Assembly: GCA_964603785.1 (NCBI GenBank)
Contig: CAZRWD010000003.1
Span: 142,716 to 206,715, forward strand
Direction of reading: 5' to 3'
Length of the DNA: 64,000 nt
Source of the DNA: an uncultured bacterium
GTDB taxonomy: Bacteria > Fermentibacterota > Fermentibacteria > Fermentibacterales > Fermentibacteraceae
Below the pieces are notes generated by a model. That model was not told the origin of the DNA and did not search any database. It saw only the letters and a list, made by a program, of their open reading frames with translations. Every line of letters starts with the position of its first letter. The stretch's first letter is position 1. Positions 6,414 to 50,420 of this stretch are shown piece by piece. The translations under genes and the position numbers were made by a program.

Positions 6414-6423
6414 GCGATCTCCC

Positions 6424-7245: not shown

Positions 7246-7324
7246 GTAGGACTACTCCTTTGTCGGCTCTTCAGGGGCGGCCCCGCCGATCGCGGAGCCG
7301 CCCCCGGGATCTTTCAGCCTTCTC

Positions 7325-16704: not shown

Positions 16705-16726
16705 CGCACTCTCCCTTCAGGACCCT

Positions 16727-18958: not shown

Positions 18959-18959
18959 C

Positions 18960-37247: not shown

Positions 37248-38027
37248 ATGGAGGGAGTCTTCGCCATGACAGCCGTCGCCCTGGTGCTTGCAGCCCTCTC
37301 CGCCGCCGAGCCCCCGCTGTACGACCCGGGGCTCAGGGCGGCCGGACGGACTGCCGACTCGGTAGTCGCGGAAGTTCCGGGCCGGTTCGGCTTCATGGGC
37401 CTCGACCTGGAGCACAGGCGCAACTTCGTGCTCAGCGAGGGCGGCTTCTTCGACTGCGGATCCATGCCCCTGCTCCCTGTCGCCTGCGCCGTCTGCCTCA
37501 GGGCGCTGCCGACGGGGGCGGCGTTCCCGGTGGCTCCCGACGAACTGATCCTGGACGCATGGAGAGGTGATCCGGCGGCGATCGAGGCCCTTGCCTCCCG
37601 GCTCGGCAGGGCGAACACGGAGAGGTGGCTGGACGCATGCCTCCTGCAGGCGACACACCTCCCGGAGGACGGCGTGGGAATCCTGCCCTGGACATCCACG
37701 GCCTGGGACTGCGCGGTCATGCTCGCCTGGATGGACAGGTTCCTCCCGGCCAGCGGCATCCCCCACCCGGGGGCGCCCACGGTGTCGCGGCAGATCCTGG
37801 AGGCGTTTCCCGCTGACCTGGAGCCGCTGGGCTGCGAGGTCAGATCGGATGACGGCTACCGCGGGGTGTTCGCGGTCCATCTGCCGTGGGACAGGGTGCT
37901 GGGGCTCTCAATGCTGGCCGACTCCCTGACCGGAGGCCCGGAGGCCGACCAGGCCCTGGCTCTGATGATCAGGAGGCTCTGTGCGGGGAACATGGATTAC
38001 ACGGAGGCGTACATCCCCGGGCAGTGA
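37248..38027 (+). CDS. Hypothetical secreted or exported protein
   Basis: Possible signal peptide (MTAVALVLAALSAA). Cys pairs. No family recognised. Confidence 0.35.
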   Translation: MEGVFAMTAVALVLAALSAAEPPLYDPGLRAAGRTADSVVAEVPGRFGFMGLDLEHRRNFVLSEGGFFDCGSMPLLPVACAVCLRALPTGAAFPVAPDELILDAWRGDPAAIEALASRLGRANTERWLDACLLQATHLPEDGVGILPWTSTAWDCAVMLAWMDRFLPASGIPHPGAPTVSRQILEAFPADLEPLGCEVRSDDGYRGVFAVHLPWDRVLGLSMLADSLTGGPEADQALALMIRRLCAGNMDYTEAYIPGQ

Positions 38028-38040
38028 TCCCCTGCGGAGC

Positions 38041-38502
38041 CTATCCACCGCGCCGACTGCAGCCCGCCGTCCCCTCCCCGGGACGGAGGATGGCGATCAT
38101 CGCCAGAGAGACCCCCGCCCCGGCCAGGAGGCCGGTTGCGGTCCTCATGAGGAAGCTGCTCTCGTAAAGGCCCAGATGCTGCATCAGCCCGTCCGCCGCC
38201 AGGGGCAGTATCAGGAGGGCCGCTGCCGGGGGACCGATCCTGCCCGACAGGCGGTCCGGGATCAGCGCCCCCAGGGCCATGCCGCTCCAGAATGCCGTGC
38301 ACCTTGCGCACAGACCCGACATGCCCCACGGGAGATCGATGCACCTCGCGGGAAACCTGTGGCAGGTCGCCGACAGGAAGCGGTCCAGCAACGCGGCGGA
38401 CCGTTCCGGCACCAGGCCGTGCAGCCAGGAGGCTAGCGCCATGACCAGGGCCGGACCGGCGACGAGGATGCGGACCGGGCGGTTCCTCAGCCGTCCGCCC
38501 AC
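38041..38502 (-). CDS. DUF2085-family membrane protein
   Basis: Matches the DUF2085 signature CHRFPARC...LPWGMSGLCARCTAFWSG (CHQxPxRSF...CARCTG), with four TM helices. Confidence 0.5.
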   Translation of the reverse strand: MGGRLRNRPVRILVAGPALVMALASWLHGLVPERSAALLDRFLSATCHRFPARCIDLPWGMSGLCARCTAFWSGMALGALIPDRLSGRIGPPAAALLILPLAADGLMQHLGLYESSFLMRTATGLLAGAGVSLAMIAILRPGEGTAGCSRRGG

Positions 38503-39896
38503 GTCGATCTGGTCCAGTTGAAGCGCTCGCGCACCGAACCCTCCCCCAGGAGCTCGCGGGCGGCGTAGTCCCCCATCTCGAGAGAATGATCCATGTTGTT
38601 GTAGCGGAAGAGGCCCTGGCGACCGCAGGTGACGATCCCGGGGATCCTCTCGACGGCGTCGAGGACGGCGGCGGACCGCCTGTCGTAGCCGAGGGCGTAG
38701 ACGGGATAGGCGTGGGCCTGCCTCGCGACCGTGGACCCCATCACCTCGTCCCTCTCGAAGAGGCCGAGCCTCGCGCCCCCCTCGACGCAGGCGGCCTCGA
38801 GCCCGGTGCCTCCGTGCCAGAGAGCGTCGTTCTCGTCGCAGGTGAATTCGAACACGACCTGGCCGCCCTCGTCGGAGGCCGTCGGATCGAAGTTCTCGGG
38901 GATGGAGAGCCTGTTGAACCCGTAGCGGGGCTCGGGGGTGTAGATCCAGTGGTCCCGGGCCGCCGGCCTCCCGACGAGCTTCAGGGTCACGAACACGACG
39001 GCCCTGAATCGCAGTCCCGCGGCGGCCTCGCGTATCCCGTCCGGCAGGGCCGGGCCGAGGAGCCCGGCGAACTCCGGGAGGGGGATCGTGTTGATCACGC
39101 CGGCGGCCTCGAGGGTGCCGGAGGAGGTCCGCACCGTGAAGCCCCCCCGGGGGGAGGCCTCGACGGATTCAGGCGGACTGTCGGTGATGACGGTCCCCCC
39201 GCCGCCCGTGATCCTCCCGGCGAGGGCATCTGCTATCCTGCCGATCCCGCCCCTGGGATAGTGGAAGAGGCTGACGAGGCTCCGTATCTCCCTCCCGCCA
39301 GGCGCGAGCGTCGCCCTGACCAGGCCGGCGAGGCTGGGGACGGAGATCCTCTGGCTCGCCCAGTCGGAGGACATCGAGGAGGGCGGCATGCCCCAGAGCT
39401 TCTCCGTGTACGGTCCGAAGTAGATGTCGTAGAGCCTGCGCCCGAACCTGTCTACCACCCAGGTCTCGAAGCTGGCGTCGTCGGGTCCCCGCAGCGCGGA
39501 GCGGATCCTCGCCAGCGCGTAGCTGCCCAGCATGGCCGCGCCGCTCGCCGGGGGCATGCGCCTCAGCACGTCGGGAAGGCTGAGGGGATAGACGAAGTAG
39601 CGGTCCAGGAGCCTGATCCTGCTCATCCTCTCGAGCCTCAGGAGGTCGCCTCCCAGCAGCCCGGTCACCCTCTGCAGGATCCCGTCGTTCGAGGTGTGGA
39701 ACCTGTGCGGCCCGTAGTCGAACCTGAACCCCCCGCAGCGGCGTGTGGCGGCCAGGCCGCCTATCTGCCCCTGCTTCTCCAGGACGACGCACCTGACACC
39801 CCTCCGGCAGAGCACGTCCGCCGCCGACAGGCCGGCGAGGCCCGCCCCGAGGACCACGACGGTGTCGCCGGCCTTCAGCGGGGCTCGTCTATCCAT
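38487..39896 (-). CDS. FAD-dependent oxidoreductase (amine-oxidase/protoporphyrinogen-oxidase-like)
   Basis: Trimmed to MDRRAPLKAG. Dinucleotide-binding motif VVVLGAGLAGLSAADVLCRRGVRCVVLEKQGQIGG. About 469 aa. The N-terminal 390 aa of the track ORF are Arg-rich and spurious. Confidence 0.7.
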   Translation of the reverse strand: MDRRAPLKAGDTVVVLGAGLAGLSAADVLCRRGVRCVVLEKQGQIGGLAATRRCGGFRFDYGPHRFHTSNDGILQRVTGLLGGDLLRLERMSRIRLLDRYFVYPLSLPDVLRRMPPASGAAMLGSYALARIRSALRGPDDASFETWVVDRFGRRLYDIYFGPYTEKLWGMPPSSMSSDWASQRISVPSLAGLVRATLAPGGREIRSLVSLFHYPRGGIGRIADALAGRITGGGGTVITDSPPESVEASPRGGFTVRTSSGTLEAAGVINTIPLPEFAGLLGPALPDGIREAAAGLRFRAVVFVTLKLVGRPAARDHWIYTPEPRYGFNRLSIPENFDPTASDEGGQVVFEFTCDENDALWHGGTGLEAACVEGGARLGLFERDEVMGSTVARQAHAYPVYALGYDRRSAAVLDAVERIPGIVTCGRQGLFRYNNMDHSLEMGDYAARELLGEGSVRERFNWTRSTWADG

Positions 39897-41473
39897 CGCA
39901 CCCTCTGCCTCTCGTCCGGCTCGACGAGAGGCCTGGCACGCACGTATCCGACCACGGCATCGTACAGGGTTATCCCCGCAGGGACCGCCTCGAACTCCGA
40001 GAGGATCCCGTAGCCGACGTTGCCCTGCGCGAGGTAGCCGGTCGTGACGAGGACGTATCCGGCCCCCGGGTCGACCGGGAAGCCTCCTATGAGCAGCTGC
40101 TCGATCTTGGCCATGTCCGGCAGCGCCTGGTTCCTCACGGCGGTGAACCCGGCGGGCTCCATGTCCCGCCGACGCCCCTGCATCCCCGTCTCCAGGACCC
40201 GCAGGAGCTGCTCGCCGGTCAGTGTCACGAGGTAGAGGTCCTCCTCGAAGGGGATGGCCTCGTATATGATGCGCGGGGTGATCGGGCCCCTGGGAACTGC
40301 GGCCCGGATCCCGCCCCTGTTCATCAGCGCGACGTCGGCCCCCGAGGCCTCGAGCATGGCGTCCGCGACGAGCCTGCCAAGCGGGTGCTCGGCCGTCCCG
40401 CGGGGGATCTCCCGGGCAGCCTCGCCGATGACGTCGTCCATCCCGGCTTCGGCGACCGCGCGGAAACCCTCGATGAGGGCCCATGCGGCCGGGTCGGGGA
40501 GGAACTCGTCGTGCAGGAGGTTCACCAGGAGCTCGCCCCCGGGACACTCCCAGCCCACGAGGGATCGGGTCTCCGTGTCGATCCAGAGCCTCAGGTGGCA
40601 GAGTCCCGTGCCGTTGGCGTACCCCTGGACGACTATCGTGTGGGTGTAGGGGTTCACCCACGGCATGCGGAGCCCGAAGTGGGTATGCCCGGAGATGATG
40701 AGGTCGATCCCCGGCACCAGCGTGGAGAGCTCGGCGTTGTTGAGCGCGAAGTCCTTCTCGAACCCGGTGCCGGCCTGCGCCGCCGCGACGACTCTGGAGA
40801 CGTATCCGTCGGGATCGGAGGGCTGCCCCAGGTGCGAGAGGATGAAGACCAGGTCGGCGCCCTCGTTGCGCACCCTCTCGATCTCGGCGCGCACCGCCTC
40901 CTCCTCCGGGAGGAAGATGTAGCCCTCGAGAAGCCCGGGATCCACCAGCCCCCAGGTATCGGTCGTGCAGAGCCCGATGAGCGCTATCCTCACGCCTTCG
41001 TACTCGAGCATCACGTGCGGGAGGACCGGCTCGGGAACGAGGCCGGTCTCCACCGAGACCAGGTTGCACCCCAGGACCGGGAAGCGCGCCTCGCGGGCGA
41101 GGGCGAGCGCGTTAGCGACCCCGTCGTCGAAGTCGTGGTTGCCCAGCGTCCAGGCCTCGTAGCCCGCGAAGTTCATCCACTCGACGACGGACATGCCCGT
41201 GTCGGAGTTGCCCACGGGCGTTCCCTGGTAGATGTCGCCCGCGTCCACGAAGAGGCAGTACATGCCTTCCGCCGCCCGTTCCCTGCGCACGGCGTCCACG
41301 TAGCCCAGGAGCCACGCGCCGCCGCCGATCCCGGGCGGGAAGTCGGGGTTGAGGAATGTCGCATTCCTGGGGGTTATCCCCCCGTGCACGTCGTTGGTGT
41401 GGATGACGTCGAGGCTGAACACCCCCCCCGAGACGGGGACGGCGGCCGCCAGGGCGAGGAGGAGCAGCCTCAT
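39875..41473 (-). CDS. Secreted bifunctional metallophosphatase/5'-nucleotidase
   Basis: Signal peptide. Calcineurin-like phosphoesterase motifs (IHTNDVHG, GDIYQGT, GNHDFD, GHTH). 5'-nucleotidase C-terminal domain. Confidence 0.75.
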   Translation of the reverse strand: MRLLLLALAAAVPVSGGVFSLDVIHTNDVHGGITPRNATFLNPDFPPGIGGGAWLLGYVDAVRRERAAEGMYCLFVDAGDIYQGTPVGNSDTGMSVVEWMNFAGYEAWTLGNHDFDDGVANALALAREARFPVLGCNLVSVETGLVPEPVLPHVMLEYEGVRIALIGLCTTDTWGLVDPGLLEGYIFLPEEEAVRAEIERVRNEGADLVFILSHLGQPSDPDGYVSRVVAAAQAGTGFEKDFALNNAELSTLVPGIDLIISGHTHFGLRMPWVNPYTHTIVVQGYANGTGLCHLRLWIDTETRSLVGWECPGGELLVNLLHDEFLPDPAAWALIEGFRAVAEAGMDDVIGEAAREIPRGTAEHPLGRLVADAMLEASGADVALMNRGGIRAAVPRGPITPRIIYEAIPFEEDLYLVTLTGEQLLRVLETGMQGRRRDMEPAGFTAVRNQALPDMAKIEQLLIGGFPVDPGAGYVLVTTGYLAQGNVGYGILSEFEAVPAGITLYDAVVGYVRARPLVEPDERQRVRWIDEPR

Positions 41474-41483
41474 CCCGCCCACC

Positions 41484-42680
41484 TCACAGCGAGAAGGCCC
41501 GCGAGGCCGAGATGACGATCGTCGTGCGGGTCTCCTCGATCATCAGGCTGTCGCCCGCATCGAGCGAGAGCATCGCCGGGAGGTCCTGCTGGTCCCACGA
41601 GCGCGGGGTGAACGAGCCGCCTGCATCCAGGGTCCATCCGTCCGGGAGGGTGAAGCCCATGCCCGCCGTGAAGGATGCCGCGTTCAGCGCACGGTCGACC
41701 GGCGAGCGGTCGTACCTGAAGCCGAACCTGCAGACCGGGCCGCCGGGGATGTGGTTCTCGATGCCGGCCGAGGCGTGCCATGCGTCGTCCATGCCCATGT
41801 CCACGCCGTCGAGCTCCGCCCCCGACATGGCGCGGTAGGCGACCTCGGCGGTGAACCTGCTGCGCAGGGCGTTGCCCGGAAGCCAGGATGCGCCCAGGCT
41901 CACCTCGGGCGGGAGATCGTAGTCGCCCTCGAAGCCGCCCGACCAGCCCAGGGAGAGGATCTGCTCCGCCCCGGCGCACACCGTGAGCCTGGGGGACGGC
42001 TCGAGGAGGATGGAGAGCCTGCCGGCGAACCCCGACAGTTCCGCGGACTCCGAGACCTCCTCGTCGGTGATCCCGGGATCGATCCAGTCCCTCGACCAGG
42101 TGAAGTCCCTGGAACCCGAGAGCAGGCCTCCGCCCACGCCGACCCCCAGGAGGCCGGACACCCTGAACGCCGCCGCGAGTCCGATCTCCCCGAGCATGCC
42201 GCTGGAGGTCAGCTCCTCGAACCCGACCGGCACGTAGTAGTCGTTGTTGATGGTCCTGTCGTAGTCGTAGTCGAAGGAGCCCCTCGCCCGGAAGCCCAGC
42301 CCCAGGGCCAGGCCGGGCGGCAGCCAGGACACCTCCGAGAGCGAGGCGGCGATGCCCGCCGGCAGGAGCCGGACCGTCCTGTTGAACGCGTGCTCGGCCT
42401 CTCCGATGGAGCTGCCGAACTCGTCGTACACGGTCCTGGTCCTCTTCTCAGTCTCCAGCTCGAGCGCTCCCGACAGCCCGGTCGAGAGGCCCGGACCGAC
42501 CAGGAGCAGCGCGGCGGGGTTGGACAGGGCGCCCAGGGCGGTCGGGTCCATGAACCCGGCACGGCCCGTCGAGAGCGCGGCTCCCCCCCCCGAGGGGGCC
42601 CAGCCGCCGGTCGAGAGAAAGGTCTCCGGAAGGCCGGCGGCCATGACCGCCGATGTCGCAAGCACGCATAGAAGAGTCAT
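41484..42680 (-). CDS. Outer-membrane beta-barrel protein (PorV/PorP-like)
   Basis: Signal peptide. Weak PorV-like N-terminal motif (GRAGFMDPTALGALSNPAAL). Amphipathic beta-strand periodicity. C-terminal FSL. Confidence 0.5.
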   Translation of the reverse strand: MTLLCVLATSAVMAAGLPETFLSTGGWAPSGGGAALSTGRAGFMDPTALGALSNPAALLLVGPGLSTGLSGALELETEKRTRTVYDEFGSSIGEAEHAFNRTVRLLPAGIAASLSEVSWLPPGLALGLGFRARGSFDYDYDRTINNDYYVPVGFEELTSSGMLGEIGLAAAFRVSGLLGVGVGGGLLSGSRDFTWSRDWIDPGITDEEVSESAELSGFAGRLSILLEPSPRLTVCAGAEQILSLGWSGGFEGDYDLPPEVSLGASWLPGNALRSRFTAEVAYRAMSGAELDGVDMGMDDAWHASAGIENHIPGGPVCRFGFRYDRSPVDRALNAASFTAGMGFTLPDGWTLDAGGSFTPRSWDQQDLPAMLSLDAGDSLMIEETRTTIVISASRAFSL

Positions 42681-42693
42681 CGAAACCCCCGGC

Positions 42694-45132
42694 CTACCAG
42701 CGGAAGTCCAGCTGGCAGCTGAAACCGTAACCGGTCGATCTGTCGCCGAAGTCGGTGACAGTCCCCGCGGGATCGCCCTCGTAGTGGTACTGGTCCTCGG
42801 GGTCGGGCCTGTAGAGCCCGTTCCTCGGGAAGACCGTGTCCTTCCTGAGCACCCTCAGGCGGAGCTGGAGCATGTCCGACACGGTCTGCTTGAGGGTTAT
42901 GTAGAACTTGGTGCCGCGTCCGTCGAGGAAGTCTATCCCGGTGTCCTCGAACTCCCACTGGCTCATCCCGTCCGTCGTCCAGAGCGTTGTCCCGCCAAGG
43001 ACCGAGAAGTCGTCGGTGAAGCGGTGCTCCCACCTCGCGCTTATGTAGCCGCCGGTCATCAGGCGGTCGTCGTCGTACCGAGGGTTGGGCGTGAGCTCGA
43101 CGGCGCCGGCGCGCAGCGAGATCTCGAAGAAGTCGTCGCCCGGAGGCAGGATGAAGGTGCGGAGGGTGACCTCGTGGGTGACGGAGCTCGTCGGGACGAC
43201 ATCCTGCATCTTGGTCTTGTCCTGCAGCTTGTACTTGAGGCGGAACCTCACCGGGAAGACCGGCCTGTACTCGACCTCCCCCTGGAACCGGTAGTTCTCG
43301 AACCCCCATGGCACGGACCGCCAGAGGTCGAGGTACACCCTGGGGAACACGACCTGCCGGCTGACCTGGAAGCGTGACTCGAGGTACAGCCCCTCCTCGG
43401 GCTTGGGCACCGGCCAGCCGGCCAGCTCGCCCATGAGCGGGTCGTTCAGGTAGTAGGGCTTCTCGAAGATGGTGTCGTCGAAGCGCGCCTGCTCGGCGAA
43501 GCCCCTGTTGTAGGGGTTCGTGTAGCCCAGCCCGTACCGGCGCCATGCGCCCAGGATGTAGAACCAGTCGTTCTGCCAGCGGACGCTGGAGATCATCGCC
43601 GTGGCGTCGTTGTCCTGGACTGCGGCCTCGGCCTCGAACGAGAGCGGGCCCAGCACGGTCTGCCCGCTCACCGACCAGACCCCGAGACCGTCTCCGTCGG
43701 GCATGCCCTCGTACTCCGGGCAGATCCAGTTCTCGGCGTCGCCGGGTATGTCGATCTCCTGGGGATCGGGGTCGAGGGAGTCGCTCCACGAGACGGCCAT
43801 GACCCCGGCCCCGAGGGCCGTGCCGTACGGCAGCAGGCCTCCCAGGTCCACGATCCCGTAGCCGCCGGCGGTGGTCTCCCTGACGGCCCCGGCCTGCCAG
43901 GTGGTCCTGAACGGGGTCAGGACGAGGGCGTTCGGGGTGCCGTCCGAGTTGACGATCGCATCCCTGGGGGCGCTCGAGAAGAACCCGAACCCGACGAGCC
44001 TGCCCGCCCTGGCCTCCATCGCCGCCCCGGTGAAGGCGAACTGCCTGGTGGAAGTCAGGTCCGGATGCAGGCCCCACGGCCTGTAGAGGGTGCGGCTCAT
44101 GAACTCGTCGGTGTTGTCCAGCATGAGGCCCTGGCCCAGGGAGAGCCTGTAGTTGCCGAGTATGACCTGTCTGACAGGGCCGAGATGGGACAGCGAAGCG
44201 AAGGCCTTGGCCACGTCATAGGTGTCTCCCAGACCGCCCAGGTCGAAGTCCGACACCAGGCCGTACCCGGAGGTGGAGGAGGCCCCCCGCGACACCCTGA
44301 GACCGGCGCGGAAGCGGTCGCCCACACCGAGGCGCAGGTTCTGCTCGGTGCCGGTCACCCCCCTTGCCTCGAGGAGCTGCCCGTACTCGTCGGATATCCT
44401 GTCGTGGAGGGCGGCGCTGTCGACCGGGGAGCCGGCGTAGCTCCTGCCCCCGCTGCCGAAGTCGGACAGGGCGCTGGCGAGGCCGTCGAGCCTGGAGTCC
44501 AGCCCCTCCTCGCCCGCCCACCTGCCGGAGGCCGCATCCACCGAGACGCGGAGGGAGCCGAAGACCTCCATGCTGCTCAGGTCGAGCTCCCTGACGGCGA
44601 TGAAGTCCCTCATGTTCCGGTAGCCGTAGTAGGAGAGGTTCTCCGTGCCCCTGAAGGAGGTCACCCCCGAGACGGGACCCATCTCGGCGAGCCTCCTCTC
44701 CACCGCCGCGGCGTCCACAAGGCTGACCCTGTCGAGCATCCTGAGATCCCAGTGGGTCAGGTCGTTGGCCGGGAGCGGCCTCACCAGGAGGTCCTCCCAC
44801 AGGTCGACGGCCGCGTCGCCGGGGCCGTCCTCGGTGGCCAGCCTCTCCATGACGTCCAGCACCGCCGGGCTTATCCGGCCGGGCGGCGGCGGCAGGACCG
44901 AGCAGTTGCTCCTCAGCCACCCGAGCTCGACCGCCGTGAAGCCCGGTATCTCCATCACCTCGTAGATGTCGCCGATGCCGCCGGTTTCCAGGATGTAGGC
45001 ATGCAGGGCCGACGCCTGGGCGTCCGTCAGGCCCTCGAGGGCCTCGAGCTCCTCCAGCCCGGCCGAGTTGAGGTCGATGCCGGGGATCGAGGGCTGCAGC
45101 AGGAGCGCGGCCGCGAGGAGGCTAGAAAGCAT
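42694..45132 (-). CDS. Large outer-membrane beta-barrel protein with N-terminal tandem ComEA-like helix-hairpin-helix (HhH) domains
   Basis: Signal peptide. ComEA-type HhH motifs (IDLNSAGLEELEALEGLTDAQASALHAYILETGGIGDIYEVMEIPGFTAVEL). A second HhH-like stretch near residue 130. An extended strand-rich domain of about 650 aa ending in an aromatic residue (LDFRW). Confidence 0.6.
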   Translation of the reverse strand: MLSSLLAAALLLQPSIPGIDLNSAGLEELEALEGLTDAQASALHAYILETGGIGDIYEVMEIPGFTAVELGWLRSNCSVLPPPPGRISPAVLDVMERLATEDGPGDAAVDLWEDLLVRPLPANDLTHWDLRMLDRVSLVDAAAVERRLAEMGPVSGVTSFRGTENLSYYGYRNMRDFIAVRELDLSSMEVFGSLRVSVDAASGRWAGEEGLDSRLDGLASALSDFGSGGRSYAGSPVDSAALHDRISDEYGQLLEARGVTGTEQNLRLGVGDRFRAGLRVSRGASSTSGYGLVSDFDLGGLGDTYDVAKAFASLSHLGPVRQVILGNYRLSLGQGLMLDNTDEFMSRTLYRPWGLHPDLTSTRQFAFTGAAMEARAGRLVGFGFFSSAPRDAIVNSDGTPNALVLTPFRTTWQAGAVRETTAGGYGIVDLGGLLPYGTALGAGVMAVSWSDSLDPDPQEIDIPGDAENWICPEYEGMPDGDGLGVWSVSGQTVLGPLSFEAEAAVQDNDATAMISSVRWQNDWFYILGAWRRYGLGYTNPYNRGFAEQARFDDTIFEKPYYLNDPLMGELAGWPVPKPEEGLYLESRFQVSRQVVFPRVYLDLWRSVPWGFENYRFQGEVEYRPVFPVRFRLKYKLQDKTKMQDVVPTSSVTHEVTLRTFILPPGDDFFEISLRAGAVELTPNPRYDDDRLMTGGYISARWEHRFTDDFSVLGGTTLWTTDGMSQWEFEDTGIDFLDGRGTKFYITLKQTVSDMLQLRLRVLRKDTVFPRNGLYRPDPEDQYHYEGDPAGTVTDFGDRSTGYGFSCQLDFRW

Positions 45133-45949
45133 ATCCCACCCCGGCCTGGTGCGTGAGTTCGAGGTCGGGATGCGTCTCTACCGCGTAGCTGAGCCGGATC
45201 CCCTCGACCTCGACCGCGATGCCGCCGGTGAACGAGGCCGGGGAGGACTTCACCCCCGCCATGAGGGAGACCGGGCCGACGGGGACGGACTGCCCGAACC
45301 TGATCCTGGTGCCCCTGTAGTCCCTGCTCAGCGCCACCCTCGACTCGAGACCCGCGGAAGGCCGGTAGGCCAGGCCGATGTCCAGCCGGGACTCGAATCT
45401 CTCGCCGCTCTCGCCGATGCGCGCATCGAAGACGTTCCTGGCCGAGGCGGAGAGCATCCAGCGCGAGTAGACCTCGGCCTGCAGACCGGCGTTGACGGCC
45501 CATGCCGCGGCGCTGCCGTAGCTGCTCTGCCCGTCGGCTATGTCCACGACCGCCACCACCGGCTGGATGCCGAAGGACATCCCCCGCCCGAGCCTCCCGG
45601 CCACGGTTACGGCCGCGAGCTTCTCCGAATAGTCCTCGAACCCGAACATCCTCAGGCTGAGGGAGCCCGTCAGGCCGCTCGCGAGGGCCAGCGAGCCGTC
45701 CAGCCCGTGCGTCGCGAAGTCGAACAGCGAGAAGGGGAGCCTGCTCGCGGCGCAGACCGCGGGCCCCTCCTCCCGTGCGAGGGCGGCAGGGTTCGACATC
45801 ACCGAGGAGAGCCCGGTCCCGCAGACGCCCGTGCCTCCCATGGCCTGGTCCGCCACGCCCAGCTCGAGGTCCTCGAAGGCCGCGTGGCCGTGCGCGGCCA
45901 GGACCAGGAGCAGGCAGAAGGGCAGCAGTCTTCCGAAGCGTCCTTTCAT
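45122..45949 (-). CDS. Small outer-membrane beta-barrel protein (PorP/SprF- or PorQ-like)
   Basis: Signal peptide. Glycine/aromatic beta-strand pattern and a C-terminal aromatic residue (GVGYAF). Lies directly downstream of a T9SS-CTD cargo gene, as is common for porP/sprF. Confidence 0.5.
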   Translation of the reverse strand: MKGRFGRLLPFCLLLVLAAHGHAAFEDLELGVADQAMGGTGVCGTGLSSVMSNPAALAREEGPAVCAASRLPFSLFDFATHGLDGSLALASGLTGSLSLRMFGFEDYSEKLAAVTVAGRLGRGMSFGIQPVVAVVDIADGQSSYGSAAAWAVNAGLQAEVYSRWMLSASARNVFDARIGESGERFESRLDIGLAYRPSAGLESRVALSRDYRGTRIRFGQSVPVGPVSLMAGVKSSPASFTGGIAVEVEGIRLSYAVETHPDLELTHQAGVGYAF

Positions 45950-45953
45950 CTCG

Positions 45954-46958
45954 CTACTCCAGACCGGCCGCGACCGTGACCGTCTCGGTGGTCACGTAGC
46001 GCCCTCCGTCGGGGGCGATGCCCTCGAGATGGATGATGTAGGGACCCATGGGGAGGTCCTCCCCCCTGTCGTCGTCCCCGTCCCACATCAGGGCGTCGCC
46101 GGCGGGACGGGAGTCGGCCAGCCGGGCGACCTCCCTGCCCGAACGGTCGAACACCTTCACCGTGAACCTCCAGCCGGACGGGCCGCCGTACTCGAGGGCG
46201 AGCACCTCCCCCCGCGACGGGGCGAACGGGGTGCCCGAGACGTCGAGGTGAAAGACGGAGGGTATCGACGGCGTGTAGACCGCCAGGTCCGACTGGTATC
46301 TGGGCAGGATCTGGTATCCCGAGTCGTAGGGCGGCTCCGAGTCGTACTGCCCGCCGATCCCGGTCAGGAAGAGCCTGACTCCGGCGGATATCCCCGAGAG
46401 GCTGATGCCGGTCGACTCGTTCACCCTCACCTGGAGAGAGGTCTGCCCGTTCCACACGCTGAAGTTCCACCCGCCGCCCGACTGGGCGGGGTCGTTGGCG
46501 ACCGTCACCCATCTCTCCTCGGAGGGGTTCCCCGCACGCAGCAGCAGGCCTTCGAGCGGTTCCGCCACCCCCTGGTGCATCGCGAGGGGGAGCGGCTCGG
46601 GGGAGGGGCCCGATCCCACCAGCACGTAGTCCGAGACGGCTCCCGGGGAGATCTCGGTCAGGCCGTTGTAGAACTCGATCTCGCCCGTGATCTGCAGCGT
46701 GTCCCCGGGGCCGGCCGGGAATGCGGGCAGCTCCCAGGAGAAGACGTTGATTCCCGCGGTGGAGTCCTGGACGTAGAAGCCGGCCCCCGAGCCGGCGGAG
46801 AAGAGTGCGGGCTCGCAGGTGGCCACCGCAACGACCGTGACGACCTGGCCCAGCAGGTCGGGGATGCCGTCGGCGTCGAGGTCCGCCCTCGCCTCCTCCA
46901 CGGTGATGGAGGCCGCGGGAAGGGCGGCGAGCGTCATCAGGAGAAGCGTTCTGTGCAT
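45954..46958 (-). CDS. Secreted protein with YhcR-type OB-fold nucleic-acid-binding domain and C-terminal FlgD-Ig/T9SS-like sorting domain
   Basis: Trimmed to MHRTLLLMTLAALPAASI (signal peptide). OB-fold signature (VVTVVAVATCEP...GFYVQDSTAGINVF...GDTLQITGEIEFYNGLTEI), as seen in YhcR/ExeM-type extracellular nucleases. C-terminal 90 aa resemble a FlgD-Ig/T9SS CTD (GEVLALEYGGPSGWRFTVKVFDRSGREVARL...). Confidence 0.55.
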   Translation of the reverse strand: MHRTLLLMTLAALPAASITVEEARADLDADGIPDLLGQVVTVVAVATCEPALFSAGSGAGFYVQDSTAGINVFSWELPAFPAGPGDTLQITGEIEFYNGLTEISPGAVSDYVLVGSGPSPEPLPLAMHQGVAEPLEGLLLRAGNPSEERWVTVANDPAQSGGGWNFSVWNGQTSLQVRVNESTGISLSGISAGVRLFLTGIGGQYDSEPPYDSGYQILPRYQSDLAVYTPSIPSVFHLDVSGTPFAPSRGEVLALEYGGPSGWRFTVKVFDRSGREVARLADSRPAGDALMWDGDDDRGEDLPMGPYIIHLEGIAPDGGRYVTTETVTVAAGLE

Positions 46959-46983
46959 CTGTCGTCCCCCCGCAGCGGCCGGC

Positions 46984-48270
46984 TCAGCGTCCGGCCGAGA
47001 TCTCGGCATCGGTCAGCTCCGCGGCCCTCGAGAGGGCCTCGGAGGCGGTCATCCTTCCGTAGAGGGCTATCTCGATAGCCTCGGACAGGAACTCCCTGCC
47101 CTCGTACCATGCTGAAGTCTGTGGCTCGAACGAGGCGTAGTCCAGTTGGGCGATGACCCCGTCCAGCCCGGGATTGCTCCCGATCCTGCCGAGGGCCTCG
47201 GGCTCGAGGAGCGCGCTGCGCACCGCCGGCAGGTATCCGCTGCCCTCGAACCACCTCGCCTGCTGGCGGGGCTCGAGGAACCACTTGGCGAACTCCCAGG
47301 AGGCGGCGACCTCGCGGGGGTCCTCCGAGCGGAAGATCACGACGTTCGTCCCGGCGATGAACACCGCCCTCCTGACGTTCCCGGGAAGGGGGGCGACACC
47401 CACCGTGAAGGTGGGCAGCCCGCTCTCGGCCTTCCTCCTCATGTCGGCCTCCAGGAAGGCCAGCGAGGTGACCGAGGCCTCTATCAGCCCGACCCTCCCG
47501 GCAGAGAACTGCCGCTGGTGGTCGAACCCGGTGGCGACGTAGGCGGTCCGGTCCTCGAACACGAGGGTCTGGAGGTACTCCAGCGCACCCACGCCCTCGG
47601 GGGAGTCGAAGGCCACGGAGCCGCCGCCCGGAGCGAGAAGGGAGCCCCCGTTCTGGGCGAGCAGGCACTCGAAGGTCCATACGCTGCTGGTGAAGGCGGT
47701 GCCCCACCTGTCGCCCTCGTCCTGCAGGTCTCCGTCAGCGTTGGAGTCGAAGGCCAGGTCGCGGAGGAGCTGCCGGTGCCCGTCCCAGGTGGTGGCGGGT
47801 TCGAGGCCCAGGCTGTCGAAGAGCTCGGTGTTGTAGTAGATGAGCGGGACGCTCTTGTTGAAGGGCAGGCTGTATATGCGGTCTCCGAAGGTGTTGTCCT
47901 CCCTGAAGACCTCGTAGACGTCCGGCCACAGCCTTTCGGTGAAGTCGGGGTCGAGCGCCATCAGGGAGTCCATCGGCACTATGGCTCCGCCCCGGACGAG
48001 CTGCGCGGTCCAGGTCTCGTAGGCCTGGGCCATCGACGGCGGCTCGCCGGCCATGACGCTCGCCATGATCTTCTGGCTGAGGGCCCTGTAGTTGCCCATG
48101 GTCACGGGGACGACCTCGATGCCTGGGTGGGTCTCGTTGAACTCCGCGATCAGCGTGTCCTCGAGGACGTCGCCCAGGGGGCCGCCCATGGCGTGCCAGA
48201 ACACCACCCGGACATCGCCGGGGGCCGATCCCGGCGCGCCGCAGGATGATGTGCAGGCTGCGACGGCCAT
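46984..48270 (-). CDS. ABC transporter substrate-binding protein (family 1, sugar-type)
   Basis: Lipoprotein-like N-terminus (AVAAC) and extracellular solute-binding family-1 features (RVVFWHAMGGP, LPFNKSVPLIYYN). No cognate permease or ATPase genes adjacent. Confidence 0.7.
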   Translation of the reverse strand: MAVAACTSSCGAPGSAPGDVRVVFWHAMGGPLGDVLEDTLIAEFNETHPGIEVVPVTMGNYRALSQKIMASVMAGEPPSMAQAYETWTAQLVRGGAIVPMDSLMALDPDFTERLWPDVYEVFREDNTFGDRIYSLPFNKSVPLIYYNTELFDSLGLEPATTWDGHRQLLRDLAFDSNADGDLQDEGDRWGTAFTSSVWTFECLLAQNGGSLLAPGGGSVAFDSPEGVGALEYLQTLVFEDRTAYVATGFDHQRQFSAGRVGLIEASVTSLAFLEADMRRKAESGLPTFTVGVAPLPGNVRRAVFIAGTNVVIFRSEDPREVAASWEFAKWFLEPRQQARWFEGSGYLPAVRSALLEPEALGRIGSNPGLDGVIAQLDYASFEPQTSAWYEGREFLSEAIEIALYGRMTASEALSRAAELTDAEISAGR

Positions 48271-48397
48271 GGCTGTCAGGACGGCGGGAAGGTTCCTCAG
48301 CTGTCATCCCCCCTGCGAGTGTCGAACGGGGAATATAGACGAGGGGAGGGGCGGCGGGCAGCGCCCGTAGCCGGGTCCGGGAAGGCCCGGCCGGGGA

Positions 48398-48676
48398 TTA
48401 CCTGCAGCAGCAGCCGCCCGGGCAGGAACCGGCGCCCGGTTCGTCGGAGGACGGCTTGGAGGCCTCGCAGGAGCCACCCTCCGCCGGGCAGGAGCCCTTG
48501 CGGTAGTCGGTCGAATAGAAGCCCGCGCCCTTGAAGATGAAGCCGGCGCCGACCCCTATGAGCCTGCGAACCCCTCCCCCGCACTTCGGGCAGGTCCTGG
48601 CGGGCTCGTCCGTCATGCTCTGGAAGAGCTCGAATCTATGGCCGCAGCTGTCGCACTCGTAATCGTAGGTGGGCAT
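48398..48676 (-). CDS. FmdB-family zinc-ribbon protein with Cys-rich C-terminal tail
   Basis: Trimmed to the canonical MPTYDYECDSCGHRFE...CPKCGG zinc ribbon. Unusual Cys-rich extension (GSCPAEGGSCEAS...GSCPGGCCCR). Confidence 0.6.
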   Translation of the reverse strand: MPTYDYECDSCGHRFELFQSMTDEPARTCPKCGGGVRRLIGVGAGFIFKGAGFYSTDYRKGSCPAEGGSCEASKPSSDEPGAGSCPGGCCCR

Positions 48677-48864
48677 CTCAGCCTCCGTCATGCCGGGGGT
48701 GCGCTCACCCTCCGGTCGTTTGCCGAACTGAGTCTCCGCAGGTTACAAGTGCATATTTCTTGCCACTTTGCGCCCGTCCGTCAAGCCTTGTGCGGCAACG
48801 GGCTGTACCGTCGGGCACTCCGGCGGGGGGCCGCAGGGTGCCCCGGTGGCGCGTTCCGCCGCCT

Positions 48865-49851
48865 CTACCCGACCACGTCCCTCGGCCGCAGCCCCTCGTG
48901 GATGGCCGCGGCCAGCCCGGCCAGGATGATCGGCAGGAACTGCGACGCGTGGAACACCAGGGCGAGGGCTCCGGCCTCGGCCGGCGACAGGGAGGAGACC
49001 GCCGGAAGGACCACCGCCAGGGCGGCATGCACCGTGCCGGTTCCCGCCGGGGTGGGGATAAGCATCCCGAAGGCCGCCAGGATCAGGACGAGAGCCGGGT
49101 AGAACCACTCGAAGCCCAGGGACAGGGCCATGAAGGCCGGGGCCACGGAAAGCGCCAGGCAGAACCAGACGAGCAGCGACATGAGGGCCACCGAGAGGAG
49201 CTCGCGGACGCTCCTGAGGATCTCCAGCCCGTCGGCGAAAGAGAGCAGGGCCCTCTCCAGGAGGGCTGCAGGTCTCGCCAGGCCCGCGAGCCTGAACGGC
49301 ATCGAGGCGAGCGCGCATGCCCGGGCGCGCCATATGCGCAGGGCGACGAGGAAAAGGAGGACCAGGACATAGCCTGCGCCTGCCAGGATCAGACCGGTTC
49401 TGACCGGGACCGCCAGCCTGTCCCACAGGCCGAACACGGCCACGAGGCTCATCGCCGTGAGCGTGAGTCCGTCGAACAGGCGGGCGAGGACGACCGTGGC
49501 GAGCGAGGAGGCCCTCGGGACGCCCGTGCGCCTCGACAGGAGCAGTGCCCTCACGAACTCCCCCACCCTGGCCGGGAGTATCGAGTTCACCATGAAGCCC
49601 GCCAGCAGGGGCGGTGCGGCGGCCGCGAAGGGTACTGGCCGGAGCGGTGCGAGCAGGAGCCTCCACCTGACTATCCTGAAGACGTAGCTCAGCGCGAGCG
49701 GGGGCAGCACCAGGAGGAGCAGGGCCCAGCGGGCGCCCGAGAGAGTGCTGCGGAGTCCGTCCAGATCGAGGCTCCTGTAGGTGAGCCACATGGCCGCGAC
49801 CGCGATGGCCACGCCGAGGGCCAGCTGGAGCACGAGCCGGGATCTGCTCAC
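48865..49851 (-). CDS. Flippase-like membrane protein (lysylphosphatidylglycerol-synthase TM-region/UPF0104 family)
   Basis: GTG start overlaps the gmhA stop (GTGA). Eight hydrophobic helices with the family-typical PARVGEFVRALLLSRR motif. The upstream about 180 aa of the track ORF are Arg-rich and spurious. Confidence 0.6.
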   Translation of the reverse strand: MSRSRLVLQLALGVAIAVAAMWLTYRSLDLDGLRSTLSGARWALLLLVLPPLALSYVFRIVRWRLLLAPLRPVPFAAAAPPLLAGFMVNSILPARVGEFVRALLLSRRTGVPRASSLATVVLARLFDGLTLTAMSLVAVFGLWDRLAVPVRTGLILAGAGYVLVLLFLVALRIWRARACALASMPFRLAGLARPAALLERALLSFADGLEILRSVRELLSVALMSLLVWFCLALSVAPAFMALSLGFEWFYPALVLILAAFGMLIPTPAGTGTVHAALAVVLPAVSSLSPAEAGALALVFHASQFLPIILAGLAAAIHEGLRPRDVVG

Positions 49852-50420
49852 CGGGCCTCCGCCCCCGCCATGGCGGCTTCCACGGCCGCACAGACCGCAT
49901 GACCCGCGGACATCAGCACCTCCTGCACATGACCGGAAACGCCGGACGGCGCCACGACGGCTGCATCGGCCGCCGACGCCAGACCTGCGCCGCCCGCGCC
50001 GGTCATGGCGACGACCCTCATCCCCAGCCCACGGGCGGCCCTGACCGCCTCGAGGACGTTGGGCGAGGCCCCGCTCGTGCTGATGGCGAAGAGGACGTCT
50101 CCCGGCCTGCCCAGGGCGCGGAGCTGTCGCGAGAAGACCTGGTCGAAGGACCAGTCGTTCGAGATGGCGGTCAGGGCGGCGGGGTTGTCCGACAGGGAGA
50201 CAGCCCGGAGGGGTTCCCTGTCGCGGAGGAACCTGCCGGTGAACTCGGCGGCGAAGTGCTGGGAGTCGGCGGCGCTGCCCCCGTTTCCGCAGAAGAACAG
50301 GGTCCCGCCCGACCTGAGGCTGGAGACGCAGATATCCGTCACGGGGTCGAGGCAGGCGGGGTCGAACGCCCGCAGGGCCTCGAGGGTCGATCGAACCCAC
50401 CTCTCCGCGGCATCACTCAT
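49848..50420 (-). CDS. gmhA: D-sedoheptulose-7-phosphate isomerase (SIS domain)
   Basis: Trimmed to MSDAAERW. SIS motifs (LFFCGNGGSAADSQHFAAEF, VLFAISTSGASPNVLEA). Confidence 0.8.
   Translation of the reverse strand: MSDAAERWVRSTLEALRAFDPACLDPVTDICVSSLRSGGTLFFCGNGGSAADSQHFAAEFTGRFLRDREPLRAVSLSDNPAALTAISNDWSFDQVFSRQLRALGRPGDVLFAISTSGASPNVLEAVRAARGLGMRVVAMTGAGGAGLASAADAAVVAPSGVSGHVQEVLMSAGHAVCAAVEAAMAGAEAR

What the first reader, a model, noticed from the sequence alone, without database searches (positions are those of the whole stretch)
39875..46958. Candidate extracellular-DNA binding and utilisation module of outer-membrane and secreted proteins
Five consecutive same-strand genes are involved. 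(1) A secreted metallophosphatase/5'-nucleotidase. (2) A PorV/PorP-like beta-barrel. (3) An outer-membrane barrel of about 810 aa whose N-terminus carries tandem ComEA-type helix-hairpin-helix DNA-binding motifs. (4) A small PorP/PorQ-like barrel. (5) A secreted protein pairing a YhcR/ExeM-type OB-fold nucleic-acid-binding domain with a T9SS/FlgD-Ig C-terminal sorting domain. An outer-membrane barrel fused to ComEA-like HhH repeats is an unusual architecture. Together with a surface OB-fold protein and a 5'-nucleotidase, it suggests capture and degradation of extracellular DNA for nucleotide or phosphate acquisition, or DNA uptake.
Basis: inference. Interest (0 to 1): 0.6.

Follow-up and report, generated by a model that had tools for sequence, protein, structure and literature searches.

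The report
Outer-membrane nucleic-acid scavenging gene cluster
A tightly packed five-gene operon in an uncultured Fermentibacterota genome, conserved across several candidate phyla, encodes three outer-membrane barrels, a surface OB-fold protein and a periplasmic 5'-nucleotidase. It most likely forms an undescribed, TonB-independent machine for capturing and importing extracellular nucleic acid as food.

Summary
Five co-directional, nearly abutting minus-strand genes lie at exactly 39875-46958. They encode:
- a UshA-type 5'-nucleotidase;
- a FadL/BamG-like barrel;
- an 812-aa barrel of about 24-26 strands, with no Pfam family and two N-terminal ComEA-like HhH domains;
- a small PorV/FadL-like barrel;
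- a protein of tandem OB-folds plus a T9SS-type C-terminal domain.

The gene order is kept in about 80 loci from Fermentibacterota, WOR-3, Edwardsbacteria, Cloacimonadota, Latescibacterota and unnamed lineages, down to 33% identity.

Larger homologues of the OB protein score above threshold for Pfam DUF5689. This is the family of DdbD/RA0C_RS04920, the proposed surface DNA receptor of Bacteroidales DNA-utilisation loci and of Riemerella natural transformation.

Related loci add secreted PLD (Nuc-like) nucleases, an EEP nuclease, a class-B acid phosphatase, PHP phosphoesterases, lamin-tail-domain proteins, an ABC importer, or pst-phoU.

Best reading: an outer-membrane utilisation system for extracellular nucleic acid, built on an HhH-barrel instead of a TonB-dependent transporter.

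Caveats:
- The window cluster encodes no nuclease.
- The HhH and OB domains are acidic and lack the canonical GIG/Lys DNA-contact residues.
- The topology and the complex are inferred, not shown.

Novelty: new variant of a known kind.

The parts
45954..46958 (-). g5: secreted 334-aa protein. It has a signal peptide, a conserved DxDGDGIPD loop, tandem OB-fold (DUF5689/ExeM-N-like) domains and an Ig-like T9SS-type C-terminal domain. Proposed surface receptor.
45122..45949 (-). g4: 275-aa small outer-membrane barrel of the FadL/PorV superfamily. It has an N-terminal NPA 'hatch' motif and ends in F. Proposed docking barrel for the C-terminal domain of g5.
   Evidence: PorV_fam 19 bits, below cut-off. 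Profile A3 vs PorV 6h3i_F E=0.002 and vs the TodX/CymD N-terminal regions. Found directly upstream of g3 in 71 of 75 assessable loci.
42694..45132 (-). g3: 812-aa HhH-barrel. It comprises a signal peptide, two ComEA-like (HhH)2 domains, a helical hairpin and a beta-barrel of about 24-26 strands ending in FRW. Proposed translocation channel.
44887..45084 (-). g3 HhH domain 1 (residues 17-82).
44587..44823 (-). g3 HhH domain 2 (residues 104-182), degenerate.
   Evidence: The equivalent region is a second HHH_3 above cut-off in distant members P0088, P0104, P0119 and P0120. Helical in the AF2 model.
41484..42680 (-). g2: 398-aa 14-strand-type FadL/BamG-like outer-membrane barrel. Proposed lateral partner of g3.
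   Evidence: Profile A4 vs BamG 9n2d_B 1.6e-9, 9hjm_F 1e-7 and FadL homologue 3dwo 8e-5. Toluene_X is annotated on the equivalent gene in L081 and L082. Present in 77 of 82 assessable loci.
39875..41482 (-). g1: periplasmic UshA-family metallophosphatase / 5'-nucleotidase (probable ATG start at 41473). It has a signal peptide and no C-terminal sorting domain.
   Evidence: Metallophos and 5_nucleotid_C above cut-off. Best NCBIfam match is UshA at 146 bits, below the equivalog cut-off. Present in 70 of 75 assessable loci. Replaced by Acid_phosphat_B in L085.
   Evidence: SBP_bac_8 4.5e-34; UgpB 114 bits, below cut-off. Adjacent in all Fermentibacterota loci. In Edwardsbacteria it has two ABC permeases beside it. 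SBP_bac_1 is also upstream in L082. The lipobox is intact in relatives.

Best explanation
The cluster encodes an outer-membrane utilisation system for extracellular nucleic acid (DNA, possibly RNA or oligonucleotides). It would feed phosphate and nucleoside salvage.

Proposed mechanism:
(i) g5, an OB-fold protein of the DUF5689/DdbD kind, is exported and held at the cell surface through its T9SS-type Ig-like C-terminal domain. That domain docks on a small PorV/FadL-family barrel, g4 (possibly g2). This mirrors how PorV and PorQ hold CTD proteins and how BamG holds BamH.
(ii) The 812-aa g3 barrel (about 24-26 strands), flanked by g4 and g2, is the conduit across the outer membrane.
(iii) Its two N-terminal ComEA-like HhH domains lie on the periplasmic side. 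They either retain or ratchet the incoming polymer or gate the pore.
(iv) The periplasmic UshA-like 5'-nucleotidase g1 strips phosphate from the resulting 5'-nucleotides.
(v) Products enter through inner-membrane transporters, of which the adjacent UgpB-like lipoprotein g6 may be one.

Nucleases are supplied in cis in other lineages and presumably in trans in Fermentibacterota.

Shown here: the gene content, the folds, the multi-phylum synteny and the co-located nuclease and phosphatase genes.

Inferred: the ligand, the complex, the topology and every mechanistic step.
For: - Synteny: the g5-g4-g3-g2-g1 order is kept in 80 genome loci from at least five phyla, at 33-80% identity of g3. It is also kept in still more distant loci L081, L082, L084, L085 and L086.
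- g5 fold: OB-folds that resemble HIN-dsDNA complexes, including 4jbm, the entry used for DdbD in PMC12478041.
- g5 family: its larger homologues score above the cut-off for DUF5689. [quoted passage not shown]
- Nucleic-acid enzymes recur in the cluster:
  - secreted single-domain PLDc_2 (Nuc/NucT-like) proteins between g2 and g1 in L061, L062 and L069;
  - Exo_endo_phos plus Acid_phosphat_B in L085;
  - PHP metallohydrolase with a T9SS CTD in five loci;
  - LTD proteins in L082, L084 and L085.
- Uptake and regulation context: PhoU-PstB-PstA/C next to the cluster in L061; ABC permeases plus SBP directly upstream in L057 and L067.
- HhH fold confirmed.
- Precedent for FadL-family barrels acting as adaptors that dock on a large barrel and hold a surface protein: BamG (PMC12611786).
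- Periplasmic UshA is needed for growth on eDNA as a phosphate source in V. cholerae (abstract of PMC4714964).
Against: - There is no nuclease in the window cluster or anywhere in the 64-kb window.
- g3 HhH1 is net -5 to -12 in Fermentibacterota. Its hairpins read GLT/GFT (LPVDS in relatives) instead of GIG, and the ComEA lysines are replaced by E, Q or A.
- The OB/DUF5689-like domains have pI 4.0-4.5 in every lineage examined. This is unusual for non-specific DNA binders, although exported proteins of this genome are acidic in general.
- DNA binding by DUF5689 itself rests on structural similarity and genetics, not on a binding assay (PMC12478041).
- A WOR-3 subclade lacks g5 and has a C25 peptidase with a CTD upstream instead.
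- The UgpB-like SBP is not a known nucleoside binder.
- The model coordinates could not be inspected, so the side on which the HhH domains sit is not established.
Confidence: 0.55

Rival explanations
1. The module is the outer-membrane step of natural transformation, importing long DNA for recombination. g3 would act as a pilus-independent DNA channel, with its fused ComEA-like domains working as the periplasmic ratchet that hands DNA to ComEC.
For: - The DUF5689 partner protein is essential for transformation in Riemerella (PMC8459023).
- ComEA-type HhH domains are the periplasmic DNA ratchet in V. cholerae (PMC3879209).
- A ComM/YifB-like ATPase lies two genes downstream of g2 in WOR-3 loci L054 and L055.
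- RecJ-like genes are adjacent in seven loci.
Against: - The most constant partner is a 5'-nucleotidase or acid phosphatase, which destroys rather than preserves the substrate.
- Nucleases, an ABC importer and pst-phoU point to nutrition.
- No comEC or dprA lies in the window or in the loci examined.
- The RecJ-like proteins lack signal peptides and look like housekeeping genes.
- The two uses are not mutually exclusive, as noted for Ddb.
Confidence: 0.12
2. The three barrels are a T9SS-related surface-attachment or secretion module for proteins with FlgD_ig/Por_Secre_tail C-terminal domains, analogous to PorU-PorV-PorQ-PorZ. The HhH domains would play a structural, non-DNA role, and g5 and g1 would simply be cargo or neighbours.
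For: - g4 and g2 belong to the FadL/PorV superfamily.
- g5 carries a T9SS-type CTD that structurally matches those of PorU and PorZ.
- CTD proteins are frequent around the loci, including C25 (PorU-like, weak) peptidases upstream of g4 in L063, L076, L078 and L081.
- A second pair, PorV-like barrel plus large acidic protein, lies at window 1194-4609.
- HhH-like folds occur in non-DNA proteins (PsbU and GspK weak hits), and the HhH domains here are acidic.
Against: - It does not explain the constant 5'-nucleotidase or phosphatase, the nucleases, or the DUF5689, LTD and OB partners.
- g1 has no CTD.
- PorV_fam, PorU and PorZ models are all far below cut-off.
- g3 has no similarity to SprA.
Confidence: 0.13
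3. The module imports a different phosphorylated substrate for phosphate scavenging. Candidates are free nucleotides, nucleotide-sugars, or glycerophosphodiester polymers such as teichoic-acid fragments. The OB protein would then bind a non-nucleic-acid ligand.
For: - UshA-family enzymes also hydrolyse UDP-sugars and other nucleotides (NCBIfam names).
- The adjacent SBP is most like UgpB, a binder of glycerol-3-phosphate and glycerophosphodiesters.
- RmlD, SIS and CpsB polysaccharide genes lie upstream in Fermentibacterota.
- The acidic OB and HhH surfaces disfavour a polyanion ligand.
Against: - The polysaccharide genes are not conserved outside Fermentibacterota.
- PLD Nuc-like and EEP nucleases, ExeM/NucH-type N-terminal domains (90 bits in L061) and LTD domains all point specifically to nucleic acids.
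- A barrel of about 24-26 strands is oversized for mononucleotides.
Confidence: 0.15

Closest known systems
Bacteroidales DNA-utilisation locus ddbABCDEF, with its DdbC-DdbD outer-membrane transporter (PMC12478041)
   Same: Both are PUL-like loci that combine a surface OB-fold/DUF5689 protein, an outer-membrane channel, and periplasmic or secreted nucleic-acid phosphoesterases. g5 shows the same structural resemblance to HIN-dsDNA (4jbm). Both occur in the FCB superphylum.
   Different: The channel here is not a TonB-dependent transporter: it has no Plug, TonB_dep_Rec or CarboxypepD_reg domain. It is an unclassified barrel with N-terminal HhH domains, accompanied by two FadL-family barrels. 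The receptor is held by a T9SS-type CTD rather than a lipid anchor. The window locus has a 5'-nucleotidase but no nuclease.
Riemerella anatipestifer natural-transformation proteins RA0C_RS04915/04920 plus the periplasmic HhH protein RA0C_RS02645 (PMC8459023)
   Same: The same three ingredients appear: a DUF5689 surface protein, an outer-membrane barrel and a periplasmic HhH protein.
   Different: In Riemerella the HhH protein is a separate, unlinked gene and the barrel is of the TonB-dependent type. Here HhH and barrel are fused in one polypeptide, and the context is catabolic.
ComEA (PF12836 HHH_3; PDB 8dfk, 8dss, 2duy)
   Different: g3 is not a ComEA orthologue (TIGR01259 17.5 bits vs cut-off 152). 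It is fused to a barrel, the GIG hairpins and lysines are not conserved, and the domain is acidic in Fermentibacterota.
FadL-family adaptor barrels of the FCB group: PorV/PorQ of the T9SS and BamG of the Bacteroidota BAM complex (PMC12611786)
   Same: g2 and g4 are FadL-superfamily barrels encoded next to a large barrel and a surface protein. This matches the PorV-SprA-CTD cargo, PorQ-PorZ and BamG-BamA-BamH arrangements.
   Different: All equivalog models score far below cut-off. g4 is much smaller (275 aa). The partner barrel is neither SprA nor BamA.
eDNA phosphate scavenging in Vibrio and Shewanella (Xds/Dns or ExeM nucleases plus periplasmic UshA/CpdB; PMC4714964)
   Same: A periplasmic UshA-type 5'-nucleotidase performs the last step. 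ExeM/NucH-type N-terminal OB-like domains occur in g5 homologues.
   Different: In those organisms no dedicated outer-membrane channel or surface receptor is encoded with the enzymes.

Membership tests
HHH_3 / ComEA-type (HhH)2 domain | Sequence match to PF12836 at or above the gathering score | tested here: inconclusive
   The window protein scores 23.7 bits against a cut-off of 27. Relatives P0065, P0088, P0096, P0119 and P0120 score 42-73 bits. The family profile hits ComEA chains at 2e-7 and EEPD1 HhH at 4e-16.
HHH_3 / ComEA-type (HhH)2 domain | (HhH)2 fold | tested here: met
HHH_3 / ComEA-type (HhH)2 domain | G-h-G hairpins and basic DNA-contact residues | tested here: not met
   The hairpins read EGLT and PGFT (LPVDS and PGMT in relatives). 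The ComEA positions PSK and GEK are replaced by acidic or neutral residues. Net charge is -10.
ComEA protein (TIGR01259) | Equivalog-level score | tested here: not met
   17.5 bits against a cut-off of 152.
Ddb / Riemerella outer-membrane DNA transporter (DdbCD type) | DUF5689 (PF18942) surface protein encoded next to the channel | tested here: inconclusive
Ddb / Riemerella outer-membrane DNA transporter (DdbCD type) | TonB-dependent transporter barrel (Plug plus TonB_dep_Rec, CarboxypepD_reg) | tested here: not met
Ddb / Riemerella outer-membrane DNA transporter (DdbCD type) | Secreted or periplasmic nucleases in the locus | tested here: not met
   None in the window locus. They are present in related loci L061, L062, L069 and L085.
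Ddb / Riemerella outer-membrane DNA transporter (DdbCD type) | Requirement for DNA depletion or uptake | not testable with these tools
   This needs genetics or biochemistry.
T9SS PorV/PorQ | NCBIfam PorV_fam (NF033709) or Pfam PorV at cut-off | tested here: not met
   g4 scores 19.3 bits against a cut-off of 90. Its profile vs PorV 6h3i_F gives only E=0.002. This is a superfamily-level relationship only.
FadL / BamG family | Toluene_X or BamG model at cut-off | tested here: not met
   g2 scores 11.8 bits on Toluene_X (cut-off 29.7) and 15.6 bits on BamG (cut-off 250). It is not a BamG orthologue.
FadL / BamG family | Homology to FadL-superfamily barrels, with the N-terminal NPA hatch motif | tested here: met
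   Profile A4 vs BamG 9n2d_B gives 1.6e-9, vs 9hjm_F 1e-7 and vs 3dwo 8e-5. An NPA motif is present in both g2 and g4. Orthologous genes in L081 and L082 carry Toluene_X.
UshA-type 5'-nucleotidase | Metallophos plus 5_nucleotid_C domains with intact metal and catalytic motifs, and a signal peptide | tested here: met
   34.7 and 100.7 bits, both above cut-off. Motifs were read from the translation. The UshA equivalog score is 146 against 600, so it is a family member and not the UshA orthologue.
T9SS type A C-terminal sorting domain | TIGR04183/PF18962 or FlgD_ig match at the extreme C-terminus, with an Ig-like fold | tested here: inconclusive
   g5 scores 24.2 bits on FlgD_ig (cut-off 27) and 14 bits on CHU_C. 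The fold matches the PorU, PorZ and mirolase CTDs. Homologues hit Por_Secre_tail. Whether the genome has a T9SS could not be checked.

The most novel reading that the evidence does not exclude
The g3 family is a new class of TonB-independent outer-membrane nucleic-acid translocon. A large barrel carries its own fused ComEA-like periplasmic ratchet or gate. It is assembled with two FadL-family adaptor barrels and a CTD-anchored OB-fold receptor. On this reading it is the main route by which uncultured FCB-superphylum and neighbouring lineages (Fermentibacterota, WOR-3, Edwardsbacteria, Cloacimonadota, Latescibacterota, some Gemmatimonadota) take polymeric DNA or RNA across the outer membrane, for food and possibly for transformation, without type IV pili or TonB.
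Probability: 0.3. Interest if true: 0.85.

Novelty: new variant of a known kind. Interest (0 to 1): 0.66.

Why it matters
How DNA crosses the outer membrane is established for only two routes: type IV pilus/secretin machines and, since 2021-2025, the TonB-dependent DdbCD/Riemerella system. This cluster would be a third architecture.

It appears to share the DUF5689-type receptor with the Bacteroidota system, but it uses an unrelated channel that has the ComEA-like module built in.

It occurs in abundant but uncultured anaerobes of digesters and sediments, where extracellular DNA is a major phosphorus, nitrogen and carbon pool. It could therefore explain who consumes that pool and how.

It also extends a recent theme in FCB outer-membrane biology, in which FadL-family barrels serve as adaptors bolted onto large barrels (PorV-SprA, BamG-BamA).

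The family is compact: about 100 clusters at 50% identity with E<1e-30. It also has clear signature loops, which makes it easy to track in metagenomes.

Tried and rejected
- Housekeeping barrel. I considered that g3 is an LptD, BamA, usher, TonB-dependent transporter, Wzi or porin. Rejected: no family-level sequence hit and only generic fold similarity.
- RecJ-like DHH genes next to g1 in seven loci looked like a periplasmic exonuclease lead. They lack signal peptides and match recJ (313 bits), so they are probably cytoplasmic housekeeping neighbours.
- The long ORFs 38487-41069 and 38586-40013 that overlap g1 are high-GC artefacts. Only the 3' part, 38487-39896, is a real FAD-oxidoreductase gene.
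- The promoter and terminator scan of 37800-49200 found nothing. This is uninformative for this phylum.
- Model coordinates are not exposed, so the placement of the HhH domains relative to the barrel could not be read.
- A search of the window for PLD, PHP or RecJ homologues found none.
- Literature searches found no description of an HhH-barrel family.

Full report
WHAT IS THERE

The window is 65-71% G+C. By its closest protein relatives it comes from an uncultured member of the Fermentibacterota (Hyd24-12).

Codon-position GC picks out an unbroken run of minus-strand genes (GC3 0.91-0.94):
- g6, 46984-48270;
- g5, 45954-46958;
- g4, 45122-45949;
- g3, 42694-45132;
- g2, 41484-42680;
- g1, 39875-41482.

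Gaps between them are 25, 4, -11, 13 and 1 nt, which is operon-like packing. A FAD oxidoreductase (38487-39896) overlaps the end of g1 by 22 nt, and a DUF2085 gene follows. The big ORFs that overlap g1 on both strands are high-GC artefacts.

THE FIVE PROTEINS

g1 is a solid UshA-family metallophosphatase / 5'-nucleotidase.
- Metallophos and 5_nucleotid_C are both above Pfam cut-offs.
- It is not the UshA equivalog: 146 bits against a cut-off of 600.
- It has a signal peptide and intact catalytic motifs (read).
- It has no sorting domain, so it is probably periplasmic.

g2 (398 aa) gave only whispers on its own. A profile of 23 orthologues hits the FadL-family barrel BamG of the Flavobacterium BAM complex (9n2d_B, 1.6e-9). 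It also hits the equivalent P. gingivalis subunit (9hjm_F, 1e-7) and a FadL homologue (3dwo, 8e-5).

g4 (275 aa) is a smaller member of the same superfamily.
- Its profile matches PorV 6h3i_F at E=0.002 and the N-terminal hatch regions of TodX and CymD.
- NCBIfam PorV_fam gives 19 bits.
- Both g2 and g4 carry the NPA hatch motif.
- 'PorP' is not supported for either.

g3 (812 aa).
- On its own it scores HHH_3 just under threshold: 23.7 bits against 27.
- The family profile hits the HhH repeats of EEPD1 (4e-16) and ComEA structures (2e-7).
- More distant family members carry one or two HHH_3 domains well above threshold, at positions equivalent to residues 17-82 and 104-182.
- So 'tandem ComEA-type HhH' is right.
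- The rest is a barrel of about 24-26 strands ending in ...FRW. It has no Pfam or NCBIfam family.

g5 gives a high-confidence model (pLDDT 90.4).

CONSERVATION

A degenerate-pattern scan of one genome per species found 139 relatives of g3, of which the best 80 loci were kept. In these the order g5-g4-g3-g2-g1 is maintained:
- throughout the Fermentibacterota (55-80% identity of g3);
- at 33-38% identity in WOR-3, Edwardsbacteria, Cloacimonadota, Latescibacterota and unnamed MAGs.

An HMM census over 84 loci counts how often each gene occupies its expected position:
- g4 in 71 of 75 assessable loci;
- g2 in 77 of 82;
- g1 in 70 of 75;
- g5 in 64 of 69 (this count is inflated by CTD-only hits).

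An exhaustive profile search of 1.84 billion cluster representatives found 107 clusters with E<1e-30, mostly full-length proteins of 790-890 aa. The other roughly 11,000 hits are HhH-only. [quoted passage not shown]

Still more divergent members keep the core:
- L081: barrel, Toluene_X barrel, 5'-nucleotidase.
- L082: SBP, CTD protein, 1367-aa OB protein, small ORF, HhH-barrel, Toluene_X barrel, 5'-nucleotidase, with an LTD protein nearby.
- L084: TPR-HhH-barrel, 466-aa ORF, 5'-nucleotidase, LTD, LTD.
- L086: OB+CTD protein, small ORF, HhH-barrel, 436-aa ORF.
- One Gemmatimonadota locus lacks the nucleotidase.

WHAT POINTS TO NUCLEIC ACID

First, g5's larger homologues (663-1165 aa) in WOR-3, Edwardsbacteria and Cloacimonadota-like loci contain two or three copies of the g5 module. 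They score above threshold for Pfam DUF5689, and also hit tRNA_anti-codon OB. L061 hits the N-terminal domain of ExeM/NucH nucleases three times, for 90 bits. P0291 (35% identical over 87% of g5) has the architecture DUF5689 + OB + FlgD_ig.

DUF5689 is the family of DdbD and RA0C_RS04920.
- DdbD is the proposed DNA-binding partner of the outer-membrane transporter DdbC, within the ddbABCDEF locus that B. thetaiotaomicron needs to deplete exogenous DNA. It was compared by its authors with the same HIN-dsDNA entry, 4JBM (PMC12478041).
- RA0C_RS04920 is essential for natural transformation in Riemerella (PMC8459023).

Second, enzymes that act on nucleic acids or nucleotides keep turning up inside or beside the cluster in different lineages:
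- Secreted single-domain PLDc_2 proteins of 188-195 aa (the Nuc/NucT type) sit between g2 and the g1 homologue in L061 and L062, and twice in L069.
- In L085 a class-B acid phosphatase and a 628-aa Exo_endo_phos protein sit in place of g1, together with LTD and LTD+DUF5689 proteins upstream.
- A PHP-type (CehA/McbA) metallohydrolase with a T9SS CTD follows g1 in five loci.

Third, the uptake and regulation context fits nutrition:
- PhoU-PstB-PstA/C abut the cluster in L061.
- Two ABC permeases plus the UgpB-like SBP lie directly upstream of g5 in Edwardsbacteria.
- The same SBP is g6 here and in all Fermentibacterota loci.

MECHANISM PROPOSED (INFERENCE)

1. g5 is the surface receptor. Its CTD is not removed but is held by a PorV/PorQ-like barrel (g4, perhaps g2), as PorQ holds PorZ.
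2. g2 and g4 dock laterally on g3, as PorV does on SprA and BamG does on BamA. BamG is a FadL-family barrel that binds BamA and anchors the surface lipoprotein BamH (PMC12611786).
3. g3 is the channel.
4. Its N-terminal 260 residues should be periplasmic by the usual topology of outer-membrane barrels. They either ratchet or retain the incoming polymer as ComEA does (PMC3879209), or plug the pore.
5. g1 dephosphorylates the resulting 5'-nucleotides.
6. Inner-membrane transporters take up the phosphate and the nucleosides or sugars.

Two stretches are the most conserved parts of g3 across phyla and are candidates for the constriction or gate. Both lie outside strands and have low model confidence:
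- residues ~536-581 (NPYNRGFAEQxRFDDTxFEKPYxLNDPL...);
- residues ~718-744 (WTTxGMSQWEFEDTGIDFLDGxGTKFY).

CAVEATS THAT KEEP CONFIDENCE MODERATE

(a) The window cluster has no nuclease, and none was found in the 64 kb.

(b) HhH1 of g3 has net charge -5 to -12 (pI ~4.1) in Fermentibacterota and about neutral charge in distant members. The hairpins read GLT/GFT or LPVDS/PGMT instead of G-h-G. The lysines that follow the hairpins in ComEA are E, Q or A here.

(c) The OB/DUF5689-like domains are acidic (pI 4.0-4.5) in every lineage checked. Exported proteins of this genome are acidic overall: g1 pI 4.6, g6 4.4, and a TonB-dependent receptor 4.9. g5 also has a conserved DxDGDGIPD calcium-type loop, so metal-bridged binding is conceivable. 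That is speculation.

(d) Direct DNA binding by any DUF5689 protein has not been shown biochemically in the papers read.

(e) A WOR-3 subclade lacks g5 and has C25-peptidase-CTD proteins upstream. This keeps a T9SS-attachment reading alive.

(f) I could not inspect the model coordinates or predict complexes.

COMPARISON AND NOVELTY

The system works like a Ddb or PUL-type 'utilisome' and shares its receptor family. It fails the defining test for DdbC-type transport, because the channel is not a TonB-dependent transporter. It also fails the equivalog tests for ComEA, PorV, BamG and UshA.

It is best described as a new variant of the recently recognised outer-membrane DNA-utilisation and uptake systems, built on an uncharacterised HhH-barrel family with two FadL-family companions. 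No paper in the searchable library describes it.

Confidence:
- about 0.55 for the nucleic-acid scavenging reading as a whole;
- lower for each mechanistic detail;
- about 0.3 that g3 is truly a polymer-conducting, TonB-independent DNA/RNA translocon.

Noticed in passing
window 1194-4609 (minus strand): There is a second 'large secreted protein plus small PorV-like barrel' pair. ORF 1194-2174 (326 aa) is a paralogue of g4 (g4-family HMM E=6e-17; Pfam PorV 25 bits, Toluene_X 25 bits). It directly follows an 806-aa, very acidic (pI 4.25) protein with no Pfam hit (2189-4609). A GWxTD-domain protein (11-1144) comes next. This suggests that dedicated PorV-like barrels paired with a surface protein are a recurring design in this genome.
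   Followed up: partly
window 4519-10081 (minus strand): A complete TonB system lies in one operon: a TonB-dependent receptor with CarboxypepD_reg+Plug+barrel (7325-10081), ExbB (6424-7245), two ExbD genes (5664-6413 and 5206-5664) and TonB (4519-5190). The genome therefore has TonB-dependent transport, yet the cluster under study does not use that architecture.
   Followed up: partly
window 46984-48270 and upstream to about 48330: In relatives the UgpB-like binding protein g6 is a lipoprotein (for example ...LLAAAC|GG in L001). In the window an in-frame stop sits about 16 codons upstream of the lipobox cysteine. Only 'MAVAAC' remains after the first ATG/GTG/TTG. Possible causes are a non-canonical start, a sequencing error or a damaged signal peptide.
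   Followed up: partly
window 48398-48691 and 48743-49900: A Zn_ribbon_8 protein (97 aa) and an unannotatable 385-aa ORF are conserved upstream of g6 across Fermentibacterota (46-74% and 26-42% identity). Their link to the cluster is unknown.
   Followed up: no
window 38487-39896: A FAD/NAD-binding amine-oxidase-type oxidoreductase overlaps the stop of g1 by 22 nt. It is conserved there in part of the Fermentibacterota but absent from the Aegiribacteria-type loci. It is probably co-transcribed, with no evident role.
   Followed up: partly
L054 10253-11788 and L055 11988-13103: In two WOR-3 loci a ComM/YifB-type Mg-chelatase-like AAA ATPase lies two genes downstream of g2. YifB was also a hit in the Riemerella transformation screen. 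This may be coincidence.
   Followed up: no
L063, L070, L073, L078, L057, L059, L067 (gene after g1 or after the PHP gene): A RecJ-like DHH/DHHA1 protein (238-313 bits in the three scanned, below the recJ equivalog cut-off, no signal peptide in the N-termini read) neighbours the cluster in seven loci from two phyla. In the WOR-3 loci an RlmI-like methyltransferase follows it.
   Followed up: partly
window 39875-48270, g5 and its homologues: Exported proteins of this organism are uniformly acidic and nearly lysine-free. For example, g5 has 1 K and 15 R, and g1 has 2 K and 34 R. Mature g5 begins with a conserved DxDGDGIPD motif that resembles calcium-binding loops.
   Followed up: no
window 14842-20300: Housekeeping context was noted only in passing: a MutL-family protein (PF13941) at 14842-16704 and the two glycine-cleavage P-protein subunits at 17498-20300.
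   Followed up: no
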